DNA of 64,000 bases from Methanobacteriota archaeon (GTDB lineage: Archaea; Thermoplasmatota; Thermoplasmata; SG8-5; DAIRED01). Location: positions 1-64,000 of the forward strand of contig JAZDNO010000004.1 in the NCBI GenBank assembly GCA_043799545.1. Reading direction: 5' to 3'. Below are positions 58,975 through 60,794 of the stretch, piece after piece (position 1 is the first letter of the stretch; each line of letters opens with the position of its first letter). A program made the translations under genes and the position numbers. Below the pieces are notes generated by a model. It was not told the origin of the DNA and did not search any database. It saw only the letters and a program-made list of their open reading frames with translations.

Positions 58975-59109
58975 TTATCGGTCATTGGGCAAAGCGCTCG
59001 CTGTCATCTCCGCTCCGCATGCCCAGCAGCGGGCCATCGTTTTGAACACCTGGGCCCTGCAGTTGAGGCATTCCAGCCACTCGCGGGAACTGGTCCCGGG
59101 CCGCCTCAT
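58975..59109 (-). CDS. 44-aa zinc-ribbon microprotein (ZF-C)
   Basis: Manual translation MRRPGTSSREWLECLNCRAQVFKTMARCWACGAEMTASALPNDR; AAGGT upstream; paralogous to 60444..60608. Confidence 0.7.
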   Translation of the reverse strand: MRRPGTSSREWLECLNCRAQVFKTMARCWACGAEMTASALPNDR

Positions 59110-59244
59110 GGCGACCTTATTATTGTTATCCACGGGAAGGCAACCGCCGTGGATTTTATAAACCCCGCTGCGCCCGTATCAAAAGCGATAACGACGGATT
59201 TAAATAGAGGCTTTACCATCAAATTCCCAGCAGGAGGTTCTCTC

Positions 59245-59304
59245 ATGATGGTGGCAACCGAGTCCAAAGAAGCAATCCTGCGCCGAGTTCCGGGCGCGCC
59301 TTAG
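59245..59304 (+). CDS. 19-aa small ORF upstream of rsgA
   Basis: AGGAGGT RBS at 59232-59238; MMVATESKEAILRRVPGAP*. Confidence 0.4.
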   Translation: MMVATESKEAILRRVPGAP

Positions 59305-59379
59305 GCAGCGGGCGAGCCGGAGCTGAATTTTTATTCAAATAACGAAATATATTTATGCCAGCATCCCGAATCCCCCGAC

Positions 59380-60447
59380 ATGGATTTGGCATCCTTAGGT
59401 TGGAGCCCCTTCTTCGAGGAGGCGTTCAAAGCGCACGACGGCGAGGGCTTCGTCCCGGCGAGGATTACGGGGCGCCAGGGCAACCTCTACATAGCTCTGG
59501 CCGGGTGTGGCGAGACGAGGGGCAAGGTCTCGGGGCGTCTGCGATACGAGTGCGCAAACGGCGCAAGCTTCCCGGTCGTCGGGGACTGGGTCGCAGTCAA
59601 GGCGAATCCCGAAACGGGGCTGATGACAATCCACGCCCTCCTCCCGCGCCGCACGAAGTTCGAGCGCGCGGATTACAACGGGGGCGCGTACATCGGCGAC
59701 CAGACGGTGAGCGCCAACGTGGACGTGATAATTGTCGTCGCTTCCCTGGACCAGGAGGTCAACGAAAATCGCATAGTGCGGTACCTGGCGCAGGGCTCGG
59801 CTTCCGGTGCGAAGACGATTCTCGTCCTCAATAAATCGGACCTTAGCGAGGATGCTTGTGAAGCGATGAACGCCGCCATGAAGGCCGCCAGGGGGGCGCG
59901 CATTGTGCTAACCAGCGCTGTCACGGGCGCGGGCATCCCCGAACTCGCCGAACTGATTGGTCCGGGCGTGACGGGCTCGATGGTCGGCCCGTCCGGCTCT
60001 GGCAAGTCATCCATCATCAACTCCCTCCTTGGCGAGGGAAGGCTGAAAACCGGCGGCGTGCGCGGCGGGGACTTCAAAGGACGCCACACAACGACGTGGA
60101 GGGAGCTGGTCATCCTGCCAAGCGGCGGGATGCTCATCGACAACCCAGGGATGCGGAGCATCGGCGTCACGGGGGACGAGGGGCTGGTGGCGGCGGCGTT
60201 TGAGGATGTGGAGTCGCTCATCGCGTTGTGCAAGTTCCGCGACTGCCAGCACCGGACGGAGCCAGGGTGCGCGGTCAAGGCTGCGATTGCGGACGGGCAT
60301 CTGGCCGAGGAACGGTTCGAGAACTACAAGCGGCTGCAAAGGGAGCTTTGGATAATCTCAGTGAAGAAAAGCCAGCGCTCGAGGCAAGGAGCTGCGCTTT
60401 CGAAGGCGATAAAGCGGAGGCAGAAGGCCGAGAAGCTGGTACTCTAG
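59380..60447 (+). CDS. rsgA: Ribosome small subunit-dependent GTPase A (circularly permuted)
   Basis: OB-fold VVGDWV; NKSD (G4), then GPSGSGKSS (G1), GRHTTT, DNPG; Zn finger CKFRDCQHRTEPGC. Confidence 0.93.
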   Translation: MDLASLGWSPFFEEAFKAHDGEGFVPARITGRQGNLYIALAGCGETRGKVSGRLRYECANGASFPVVGDWVAVKANPETGLMTIHALLPRRTKFERADYNGGAYIGDQTVSANVDVIIVVASLDQEVNENRIVRYLAQGSASGAKTILVLNKSDLSEDACEAMNAAMKAARGARIVLTSAVTGAGIPELAELIGPGVTGSMVGPSGSGKSSIINSLLGEGRLKTGGVRGGDFKGRHTTTWRELVILPSGGMLIDNPGMRSIGVTGDEGLVAAAFEDVESLIALCKFRDCQHRTEPGCAVKAAIADGHLAEERFENYKRLQRELWIISVKKSQRSRQGAALSKAIKRRQKAEKLVL

Positions 60448-60608
60448 AACCTCACGGCCGAGCTGTTCTTCTCCGTCATCGGAGCCCCGCAGGACCAGCA
60501 GGTGTCGAAGGTCGAGAACATCGTCGAACGGCACTTGCGGCATTCTATCCACATCCTTCCGCTTCCCCTCGTCTTGACTGGTGAGCCGAACTCTTCTTCG
60601 TCGTACAT
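60444..60608 (-). CDS. 54-aa zinc-ribbon microprotein (ZF-B)
   Basis: Manual translation MYDEEEFGSPVKTRGSGRMWIECRKCRSTMFSTFDTCWSCGAPMTEKNSSAVRF; stop overlaps the rsgA stop. Confidence 0.7.
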   Translation of the reverse strand: MYDEEEFGSPVKTRGSGRMWIECRKCRSTMFSTFDTCWSCGAPMTEKNSSAVRF

Positions 60609-60668
60609 GAGGTCTCGGACGGCGTGACGGATATATCAACGGTCTGGAGTGAAAATCATCTGCGATAA

Positions 60669-60794
60669 CTAGACTGCGAACACGACGTTCCTGCCGTCCA
60701 TCTCGGCCCCGCAGGTGCACCGCCTCGCGTCGAGCGGGAGTAACGCCCGGCACTTTCTGCATTTTATTCTCTCGCGGCAGAGCATGGCCGACAT
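60669..60794 (-). CDS. 41-aa zinc-ribbon microprotein (ZF-A)
   Basis: Manual translation MSAMLCRERIKCRKCRALLPLDARRCTCGAEMDGRNVVFAV. Confidence 0.6.
   Translation of the reverse strand: MSAMLCRERIKCRKCRALLPLDARRCTCGAEMDGRNVVFAV

What the first reader, a model, noticed from the sequence alone, without database searches (positions are those of the whole stretch)
58975..60794. Hidden array of three paralogous zinc-ribbon microproteins split by rsgA
Seen by manual translation; all three are below the ORF-track cutoff. ZF-C: WLECLNCRAQVFKTMARCWACGAEMT. ZF-B: WIECRKCRSTMFSTFDTCWSCGAPMT. ZF-A: RIKCRKCRALLPLDARRCTCGAEMD. They share CxxC-R-x9-C(W)xCGAxM, lie on the same strand, and B and C are similar at the DNA level. 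rsgA and an sORF sit in opposite orientation between B and C, and the ZF-B stop overlaps the rsgA stop. Inference: a tandemly expanded microprotein family into which rsgA inserted, or a functional ribosome/zinc-stress module with antisense coupling.
Basis: partly seen in the sequence, partly recalled or inferred. Interest (0 to 1): 0.72.

Follow-up and report, generated by a model that had tools for sequence, protein, structure and literature searches.

The report
Three paralogous archaeal zinc-ribbon microprotein genes
Three tiny zinc-binding protein genes next to a ribosome-assembly gene in an uncultured Thermoplasmatota archaeon are real relatives of one another, but their closeness to that gene looks accidental, so this is an ordinary new family of archaeal zinc-finger microproteins.

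Summary
Three minus-strand ORFs carry a Cys4 zinc-ribbon core: ZF-C 58975-59133, ZF-B 60444-60608 and ZF-A 60669-60794/60833. A profile built only from relatives outside this genus ranks them as the three best hits among 41,038 open frames of the 2.06-Mb genome (E 5.8e-19, 3.6e-11, 1.6e-3; next hit 0.067).

- **ZF-B** is the orthologue of a 52-59 aa family with no Pfam model. It is single-copy in 10 of 22 genomes of this Thermoplasmatota order and is filed publicly as "hypothetical protein".
- **ZF-A** is a divergent tandem copy shared with the sister species. dN/dS is 0.15 for ZF-A and 0.26 for ZF-B.
- **ZF-C** was found only in this genome and is the only one not already gene-called.

The proposed rsgA/ribosome module is not supported:
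- rsgA and the family co-occur only in this genus (2 of 22 genomes).
- No rsgA locus elsewhere has a ZF gene, and no ZF locus elsewhere has rsgA.
- The stop-codon overlap becomes a 51-nt gap in the sister species.

Function is unknown. The closest fold class is the RanBP2/NZF-like zinc ribbon, at weak scores.

A side observation: an SD-led 18-24-codon sORF travels with rsgA in all seven rsgA-bearing genomes of the order.

The scan noted this same stretch before, on this genome only.

The parts
60444..60608 (-). ZF-B: 54-aa Cys4 zinc-ribbon protein. It is the orthologue of the order-wide family, which has an acidic N-terminus starting MY[DE], a core W[IV]ECxxC-x10-CWSCG and a C-terminal tail KN..V.[LF].
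   Evidence: Independent family profile E 5.8e-19. There are 21 clusters of relatives in the 5.8-billion-protein collection, all unnamed or 'hypothetical protein' from Thermoplasmata MAGs. The G001 orthologue is 26/27 identical in the core, with dN/dS 0.26 at dS 0.94. The gene is already called in the public record. The AF2 model has pLDDT 86-91 over residues 20-50 and three strands.
60630..60639 (-). TATA-like box TTGATATATC, about 30 nt upstream of the ZF-B ATG. It implies that ZF-B has its own promoter and a leaderless or near-leaderless mRNA.
   Evidence: The block TTGATATATCC is identical in G000 and G001 inside an otherwise diverged spacer. Reading it as an archaeal promoter is an inference from the known position of the TATA box, about -26 to -30.
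60669..60794 (-). ZF-A: 41-aa divergent tandem paralogue with core CRKC-x10-CTCG and tail RNVV. The longest ORF runs on to 60833, but those 13 extra codons are probably not translated.
   Evidence: It is the third-best family-profile hit in the genome (E 1.6e-3) and lies 60 nt from ZF-B. The G001 orthologue gives dN/dS 0.15, with 29 of 49 differences at third codon positions. Identity is 33/41 after M14 against 5/13 before it. The 41-aa form is the publicly called gene. The AF2 model has the same three-strand topology, pLDDT 77.
58975..59133 (-). ZF-C: divergent paralogue of 52 aa (GTG at 59133) or 44 aa (ATG at 59109). It keeps W, E, the four Cys, CW.CG and T33, but lacks the family's C-terminal tail and acidic N-terminus. 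No orthologue was found.
   Evidence: Independent profile E 3.6e-11 and E 1.2e-8 against ZF-B. GC3 is 0.77, and codon-usage log-likelihoods resemble those of ZF-A and ZF-B. It was not found in G001, either upstream of rsgA or elsewhere, and it is not in the public protein collection.
59154..59162 (-). TATA-like box TTTATAAAA, 29 nt upstream of the ZF-C GTG. It is divergent from the sORF/rsgA unit.
   Evidence: Read directly from the sequence. Calling it a promoter is an inference; no orthologue is available to test conservation.
59245..59304 (+). 19-codon sORF with the Shine-Dalgarno-like CAGGAGG at 59231-59237. It belongs with rsgA, not with the ZF genes.
   Evidence: A positional counterpart (GGAGG, then ATG about 135 nt before the rsgA start, 18-24 codons) is present upstream of rsgA in all 7 rsgA-bearing genomes of the order, although flanking genes differ. 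The peptide sequence is not conserved. No consensus RNA structure was found and there is no Rfam match.
59380..60447 (+). rsgA (small-subunit biogenesis GTPase). It is convergent with ZF-B and preceded by the invariant BRE/TATA CGAAATATATTTAT at 59343-59356. It is a neighbour, not a demonstrated partner.
   Evidence: PF03193 E 3.5e-40 and TIGR00157 at 163.9 bits against a cut-off of 100. It is present in 7 of 22 genomes of the order. The promoter block is conserved in 7 genomes.

Best explanation
The stretch holds three genuine, separately transcribed genes for stand-alone Cys4 zinc-ribbon microproteins that descend from one ancestor.

- ZF-B is the conserved orthologue of a narrow family of 52-59 aa found in one order of Thermoplasmatota and not covered by Pfam.
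- ZF-A is a fast-evolving tandem duplicate that arose before this genus split, and it is kept by purifying selection.
- ZF-C is a still more divergent copy seen only in this genome.

Each product is predicted to fold into a small three-stranded zinc ribbon closed by the C-terminal tail. ZF-B also has a disordered acidic N-terminal tail. By analogy with other one-domain zinc-finger microproteins, they most likely act as small binding or adaptor modules for a protein or nucleic-acid partner, and the extra copies would be diversified variants. This functional step is inferred, not shown.

Their position around rsgA is a genus-specific accident of gene order in a compact genome, namely convergent 3' ends. 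It is not a functional module.
For: Reality and paralogy:
- The top three genome-wide hits of an independent family profile are these three ORFs, all within 1.9 kb on one strand.
- ZF-B against ZF-C gives E 1.2e-8.

Selection:
- dN/dS is 0.26 for ZF-B and 0.15 for ZF-A against the sister species, at dS about 0.9-1.4. That is the same range as the neighbouring HAD gene (0.11) and rsgA (0.15).

Family breadth:
- The family is single-copy in 10 of 22 genomes of the order.
- It forms 21 clusters at 90% identity and gives only 7 hits below 1e-10 among 1.84 billion representatives.
- 9 species were confirmed in GTDB genomes, all Thermoplasmatota-type MAGs.

Promoters:
- The TATA block upstream of ZF-B is conserved, and there is a TATA-like box 29 nt upstream of ZF-C.

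Fold:
- AF2 pLDDT is 86-91 in the ZF-B core, with the same three-strand topology for ZF-A.

No rsgA link:
- This rests on co-occurrence and neighbourhood data and on the 51-nt gap in G001.
Against: - There are no expression or proteomic data.
- ZF-C has no orthologue, so selection on it cannot be measured. Its divergence from ZF-B is saturated at all codon positions.
- ZF-A's profile E-value (1.6e-3) is marginal on its own, and its second knuckle is CxC rather than CxxC.
- The binding or adaptor role is pure analogy. Fold matches are all weak (best Z 4.0, Foldseek E at least 0.25) and gene neighbourhoods differ between families, so no partner is indicated.
- Within two genera, rsgA and the ZF family are mutually exclusive (0 of 12 genomes with both, p 0.03 without phylogenetic correction). 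I cannot explain this, and it could hint at some relation.
Confidence: 0.66

Rival explanations
1. Functional rsgA/ribosome (or zinc-stress) module: the zinc-ribbon microproteins work with RsgA on the small ribosomal subunit, and the overlapping convergent 3' ends couple their expression by antisense.
For: In both genomes of this genus, ZF-B lies tail-to-tail with rsgA. The stops overlap in G000. RsgA itself has a zinc-binding C-terminal domain (established knowledge). Weak structural resemblance to small zinc-ribbon ribosomal proteins appears among many Z 2-3 matches.
Against: - Both genes occur together in only 2 of 22 genomes of the order, and never in the two genera g3 and g4 that hold most carriers.
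- There is no ZF sORF at the six other rsgA loci examined and no rsgA at any other ZF locus.
- The stop overlap is replaced by a 51-nt gap in G001.
- ZF-C is absent from G001.
- No ribosomal-protein family passes threshold. The PDB sequence hit to eL42 covers 17 residues at E 0.016.
Confidence: 0.07
2. Insertion scenario: an ancestral tandem array ZF-C/ZF-B/ZF-A was split when the rsgA unit (sORF plus rsgA) landed between ZF-C and ZF-B. This is an evolutionary history and is compatible with there being no functional link.
For: The sORF+rsgA unit keeps its internal organisation while its flanks differ in every family of the order, so it has been relocated repeatedly. All three ZF genes share one strand, while the unit lies on the other.
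Against: rsgA identity falls with taxonomic distance (78% in the same genus, 58-61% in f3, 48% in f4). That fits long residence rather than recent arrival. G001 has rsgA and ZF-B in the same arrangement but no ZF-C, and a different gene upstream, so a loss or a later gain of ZF-C must be added. The tree cannot place ZF-C or ZF-A.
Confidence: 0.12
3. ZF-C is a decaying or unexpressed relic of a duplication, or a copy that is no longer functional, so only ZF-A and ZF-B are working genes.
For: No orthologue was found in the sister species or in any collection searched. It is not gene-called. It has lost the family's C-terminal strand motif and acidic N-terminus. It sits on a very long branch and starts with GTG.
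Against: The frame is intact, all invariant family residues are kept (W, E, four Cys, W, G), its codon usage and GC3 are like those of the other two, and it has a well-placed TATA-like box.
Confidence: 0.2

Closest known systems
One-domain zinc-finger mu-proteins of archaea (C(P)XCG proteins of Haloferax volcanii such as HVO_2753 and HVO_0758; Brz of Halobacterium salinarum)
   Same: They are stand-alone proteins under 70 aa built around one Cys4 site with a CxxCG knuckle, they occur in many copies per archaeal genome, and they are mostly of unknown partner. The literature describes 43-49 such proteins in H. volcanii, most of which bind zinc, with roles in stress adaptation, swarming, biofilm formation and transcription control (PMC11241148, PMC6562870, PMC10716476, PMC2253796, as listed).
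   Different: No detectable sequence relationship. The weak hits to DUF7129 are E 0.0015 and below its cut-off. The first knuckle is CxxC[RH], not C(P)XCG. The family is confined to one Thermoplasmatota order. No experimental data exist.
RanBP2/NZF-type zinc ribbon (Pfam PF00641 Zn_ribbon_RanBP), including the prokaryotic W-x-C-x2-C-x3-N-x2-TFD-x-CWSCG fingers often fused to DUF2007
   Same: The Cys spacing C-x2-C-x10-C-x2-C is identical, and there is an aromatic Trp before the first Cys and the CW.CG second knuckle. The remote tail of the family-profile search consists of proteins carrying PF00641, DZR or DUF2007. NZF and RanBP2 fingers are among the best structural superpositions: TAB2 NZF at rmsd 1.4 A over 30 residues, and RBM5 at 1.6 A over 30 residues with 27% identity, both at Z 3.0.
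   Different: None of the 11 family members matches PF00641 even at E 0.1. The Trp is offset by one residue (W-x2-C). The signature Asn is replaced by Met. A C-terminal third strand and an acidic N-tail are added. The structural Z-scores are within the noise for such small domains.
Zinc-ribbon ribosomal proteins and their zinc-dependent paralogue pairs
   Same: Small size, a Cys4 ribbon and paralogous copies.
   Different: No ribosomal family reaches threshold in Pfam or NCBIfam. The distribution is patchy (10 of 22 genomes) rather than universal, and there is no link to rsgA or to ribosomal operons.

Membership tests
Unnamed Thermoplasmatota 52-59 aa zinc-ribbon family (clusters P0001-P0022) | Significant match to a profile built from family members outside this genus | tested here: met
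   Against all open frames of the genome, ZF-B gives 5.8e-19, ZF-C 3.6e-11 and ZF-A 1.6e-3 (marginal, but rank 3 of 41,038 and 60 nt from ZF-B).
Unnamed Thermoplasmatota 52-59 aa zinc-ribbon family (clusters P0001-P0022) | Core W-[IVL]-E-C-x2-C-x10-C-W-[SA]-C-[GK] | tested here: met
   ZF-B and ZF-C have every invariant residue. ZF-A keeps the four Cys and the Gly but has R..K in place of W..E and a CxC second knuckle, conserved in G001.
Unnamed Thermoplasmatota 52-59 aa zinc-ribbon family (clusters P0001-P0022) | C-terminal [KR]-N-x-[VI]-P-V-x-[LF] tail, modelled as the third strand, and an acidic M-[YF]-[DE] N-terminus | tested here: inconclusive
   ZF-B has both (MYDEEEF at the start, KNSSAVRF at the end). 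ZF-A has a recognisable tail (RNVVFAV) but no acidic N-terminus. ZF-C has neither. So ZF-B is a typical member and the other two are divergent offshoots.
Archaeal C(P)XCG zinc-finger mu-proteins | Protein of 70 aa or fewer with two C(P)XCG motifs | tested here: inconclusive
   The size criterion is met (41-54 aa). Only the second knuckle ends in CG (CWSCG, CWACG, CTCG). The first is CRKCR or CLNCR.
Archaeal C(P)XCG zinc-finger mu-proteins | Zinc binding | not testable with these tools
   This needs purified protein and metal analysis. AF2 places the two knuckles in a ribbon but does not model metal.
Pfam PF00641 Zn_ribbon_RanBP | Match to the family model above the gathering score (27 bits) | tested here: not met
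   PF00641 is not reported for any of the 11 family members at E up to 0.1, nor for the three window peptides at E up to 1.
Pfam PF00641 Zn_ribbon_RanBP | RanBP2/NZF fold | tested here: inconclusive
   NZF and RanBP2 fingers superpose at rmsd 1.4-2.1 A over 30-31 residues, but at Z 2.9-3.1, within the noise for this library. Foldseek gives nothing at or below E 0.001.
Zinc-ribbon ribosomal proteins | Match to a curated ribosomal-protein model | tested here: not met
   None in Pfam or NCBIfam for the three peptides. The best PDB sequence hit, eL42, is E 0.016 over 17 residues.
rsgA-linked gene module | Conserved co-occurrence and adjacency with rsgA across lineages | tested here: not met
   Both genes occur together in 2 of 22 genomes, all in one genus. 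Adjacency is absent at the 6 other rsgA loci and at all other ZF loci examined.

The most novel reading that the evidence does not exclude
The family is an archaeal stand-alone offshoot of the RanBP2/NZF zinc ribbon. It would bind a ubiquitin-like modifier or single-stranded RNA, and the three copies here would be specificity variants. The mutually exclusive distribution of the family and rsgA in two genera, together with their adjacency in a third, would then reflect real functional interplay with small-subunit biogenesis rather than chance. Separately, the sORF that always precedes rsgA could be a translation-sensing leader for an archaeal ribosome-assembly GTPase.
Probability: 0.06. Interest if true: 0.6.

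Novelty: new member of a known kind. Interest (0 to 1): 0.27.

Why it matters
The finding defines a clade-restricted zinc-ribbon microprotein family with no Pfam model. It gives clean evidence of purifying selection on genes of 41-54 codons, and one copy (ZF-C) was missed by annotation. That is useful for small-protein catalogues of uncultured archaea. It does not open a new mechanism: the appealing link to ribosome assembly does not survive comparison with related genomes.

Tried and rejected
- **Curated family scans.** Pfam and NCBIfam scans of the three peptides and of 11 family members gave only sub-threshold generic zinc-ribbon hits: DZR, DZR_2, DUF7129, UPF0547 and rubrerythrin-like.
- **PDB sequence profile search.** Nothing significant.
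- **Structure searches.** Foldseek against PDB gave nothing at or below E 0.001. The VIA-align wide search had a best Z of 4.0, to a rubrerythrin C-terminal domain.
- **ESM Atlas.** Only unnamed or generic zinc-ribbon clusters, at scores of 0.90 or less.
- **Conserved neighbours.** The ZF gene lies between an ABC-2 exporter and an MFS-like gene in f3, next to an M3-like peptidase and a GT2 glycosyltransferase in f4, and next to a flippase-like gene in f2. Nothing is shared across families, so no partner could be inferred. These neighbour identities were read by eye from ORF translations and were not checked against any family library.
- **Tree of the family.** ZF-C and ZF-A sit on very long branches in an unresolved polytomy, so neither the order nor the source of the duplications can be read.
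- **Selection on ZF-C from the ZF-B/ZF-C pair.** Divergence is saturated and therefore uninformative.
- **The sORF region as a structured RNA.** RNAalifold predicted no pairs and Rfam gave no match.
- **Context of the closest outside relative, P0021** (69% identical, on a contig of up to 202 kb). The metagenome scan returned only the G001-equivalent contig for this genus.
- **Literature search on RsgA in Thermoplasmatota.** Nothing relevant.
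Full report
**What is there**

The window is contig C22 of a 2.06-Mb, 58% GC genome assembled from a metagenome (94% complete). Public names of its relatives place it among uncultured Thermoplasmata/Thermoplasmatota archaea.
- ZF-C, 58975-59133
- ZF-B, 60444-60608
- ZF-A, 60669-60833

Between ZF-C and ZF-B, on the plus strand, lie a 19-codon sORF (59245-59304) and rsgA (59380-60447). rsgA matches PF03193 at E 3.5e-40 and TIGR00157 above its cut-off. The rsgA and ZF-B stop codons share the palindrome CTAG at 60444-60447.

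**Is the similarity real?**

- ZF-B finds ZF-C at E 1.2e-8 in a six-frame search of the genome, and finds ZF-A only at E 0.29.
- I then built a profile from 16 family members outside this genus and scored all 41,038 open frames of at least 25 codons. The three best hits in the whole genome are ZF-B (5.8e-19), ZF-C (3.6e-11) and ZF-A (1.6e-3). The fourth is at 0.067.
- The chance that the third-ranked frame lies within 250 nt of the first on the same strand is about 1e-4.
- ZF-A also keeps a recognisable form of the family's C-terminal tail (RNVV against KN.V).

So the three are paralogues. ZF-A has a CxC second knuckle and lacks the Trp and Glu of the core. These departures are conserved in its orthologue.

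**Are they genes?**

The sister species G001 carries orthologues of ZF-B and ZF-A in the same order next to the same HAD hydrolase gene.
- Synonymous divergence is high (dS 0.94 and 1.36), yet dN/dS is 0.26 for ZF-B and 0.15 for ZF-A. The neighbouring HAD gene gives 0.11 and rsgA 0.15.
- Differences pile up at third codon positions: 23 against 11 and 9 for ZF-B, and 29 against 11 and 9 for ZF-A.
- The ZF-B core is 26/27 identical.
- For ZF-A, the 13 codons before the ATG at 60794 are poorly conserved (5/13) while the rest is 33/41 identical. The public gene call is the 41-aa form, so 60794 is the likely start.
- An 11-nt TATA-like block (TTGATATATCC), about 30 nt upstream of the ZF-B ATG, is identical in both species within a diverged spacer. 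That points to an own promoter and a leaderless mRNA. rsgA has the same architecture: a textbook BRE/TATA about 30 nt before its ATG, conserved in seven genomes.

ZF-C has a TTTATAAAA box 29 nt upstream of its GTG, coding-like GC3 and codon usage, and all invariant family residues. However, it has no orthologue. In G001 a different gene sits upstream of the rsgA unit, and no second family member is found in that 84%-complete genome. I rate ZF-C as probably functional, at about 0.8.

**The family**

ZF-B belongs to a compact family of 52-59 residues. Members have an acidic, disordered N-terminus beginning M-[YF]-[DE], the core W-[IV]-E-C-x2-C-[RH]-x2-M-[FY]-x-T-x3-C-W-S-C-G, and the tail K-N-x-V-P-V-x-L.
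- It is present once per genome in 10 of the 22 genomes held for this order, in all four of the order's families. This genome is the only one with a second profile-level copy.
- In the 5.8-billion-protein collection it forms 21 clusters at 90% identity, all unnamed or "hypothetical protein" from Thermoplasmata MAGs.
- Among 1.84 billion representatives only 7 score below 1e-10.
- A pattern scan of one genome per GTDB species confirmed 9 species.
- No Pfam or NCBIfam model reaches its threshold.

ZF-B and the 41-aa ZF-A are already called on this contig in the public record. ZF-C is not. So only one of the three is truly hidden.

**Fold and nearest known kind**

AlphaFold2 with the family alignment gives a confident core (pLDDT 86-91 for residues 20-50) of three short strands. 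The conserved C-terminal tail forms the third strand, and the N-terminal 16 residues are disordered. ZF-A is modelled with the same topology.

Structure searches give only weak, generic zinc-ribbon or rubredoxin-like matches (Foldseek E at least 0.25; best Z 4.0). Among the best superpositions are NZF and RanBP2-type fingers, at 1.4-2.1 A over 30-31 residues. The remote tail of the profile search and of the metagenome scan consists of proteins with PF00641 (RanBP2-type), DZR or DUF2007-linked fingers reading W-x-C-x2-C-x3-N-x2-TFD-x-CWSCG.

The Cys spacing is the same. But the Trp is offset by one residue, the signature Asn is Met, and no member matches PF00641. So I file the family as resembling, not belonging to, that class. 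In kind, these are archaeal one-domain zinc-finger microproteins, as studied in Haloferax and Halobacterium (papers listed).

**The rsgA question**

- Within the order, rsgA is found in 7 of 22 genomes and the ZF family in 10. Only the two genomes of this genus have both.
- rsgA loci in two other families of the order and one family outside it have no CxxC sORF nearby.
- ZF loci elsewhere have no rsgA within the 1.5-6 kb fetched on each side. Their neighbours differ between families: by eye from the ORF translations, an ABC-2 exporter and an MFS-like gene in f3, a peptidase and a glycosyltransferase in f4, and a flippase-like gene in f2.
- In G001 two contigs overlap by 14 nt and reconstruct rsgA convergent with ZF-B, but with about 51 nt between the stops. 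The stop overlap is therefore specific to this genome.

There is thus no conserved linkage, no conserved antisense overlap and no similarity to ribosomal proteins. One oddity remains: in genera g3 and g4 the two genes are mutually exclusive (five genomes with each, none with both; p 0.03 uncorrected for relatedness). With so few independent lineages and incomplete genomes I treat it as unexplained, not as evidence.

**History**

rsgA identity declines with taxonomic distance (78%, 58-61%, 48%, 43%). That fits long residence in the order with losses. A maximum-likelihood tree of the microproteins supports the ZF-B clade of this genus (100/99) but leaves ZF-C and ZF-A on very long branches in a polytomy. 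Whether rsgA split an older array, or ZF-C was copied across it, cannot be decided.

**Side observation**

In all seven rsgA-bearing genomes of the order (three families, different flanking genes), a GGAGG box and an ATG sit about 135 nt before the rsgA start. In five of the seven the start reads ATGATGG. The ATG opens a frame of 18-24 codons. That frame ends near a conserved CAG[TC]G and a T-run, directly before the invariant rsgA BRE/TATA.

The peptide is not conserved, and the conserved DNA blocks are not in a constant reading frame. No consensus RNA structure is predicted, Rfam has no match, and the exact motif CAGGAGG-N7-ATGATGG occurs once in this genome. The one rsgA outside the order (G037) lacks it. 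What is linked to rsgA is this element, not the zinc-ribbon genes. Whether it is a translated leader or promoter-proximal regulatory DNA is open.

**Verdict**

The ribosome and antisense-module part is not. This is a new, narrowly distributed member of a known kind (archaeal zinc-finger microproteins), with one unannotated copy. Its function is unknown, and an adaptor or binding role is inferred only by analogy.

Noticed in passing
window 59231-59356 (+); counterparts in L022, L023, L024, L025, L026, L027 upstream of rsgA: A Shine-Dalgarno-led sORF of 18-24 codons, a conserved CAG[TC]G plus T-run at its end, and then an invariant BRE/TATA (CGAAATATATTTAT) precede rsgA in all 7 rsgA-bearing genomes of the order, although flanking genes differ. 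The peptide is not conserved, there is no RNA structure and there is no Rfam hit. It may be a leader or uORF-type element, or regulatory DNA, travelling with rsgA.
   Followed up: partly
order-level distribution (G003, G004, G007, G008, G014 against G005, G006, G011, G012, G013, G016, G018, G020): Outside this genus, rsgA and the ZF family were never found in the same genome: 0 of 20 genomes, and 0 of 12 within genera g3 and g4, where each gene occurs in 5. This is uncorrected for relatedness and genome incompleteness, and it is unexplained.
   Followed up: partly
L007 330-842 (+), G001, between the HAD gene and ZF-A: The sister species has about 350 extra bases here. They carry an opposite-strand ORF whose C-terminal 68 residues hold two further CxxC pairs (a CPMCGG motif near its start and a CKVC motif near its end). 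This is another small zinc-ribbon-type ORF that is absent from this window.
   Followed up: no
L084-L109 (metagenome contigs): There is a widespread, seemingly bacterial finger W-x-C-x2-C-x3-N-x2-TFD-x-CWSCG at the C-terminus of proteins. From its sequence pattern, the preceding segment appeared to me to be a DUF2007-type domain; I did not scan these loci against Pfam. In the separate representative-search hits, two proteins gave DUF2007 only below its cut-off and four others carried PF00641 above threshold. It is the nearest outgroup of the archaeal family.
   Followed up: partly
window 54774-58940 (+) against L022 1230-2042: Gene order breaks immediately upstream of the sORF-rsgA unit. This genome has a STAND-type ATPase, a TPR protein and ZF-C there, whereas the sister species has an unrelated 270-aa acidic protein. 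ZF-C therefore sits at a rearrangement boundary.
   Followed up: no
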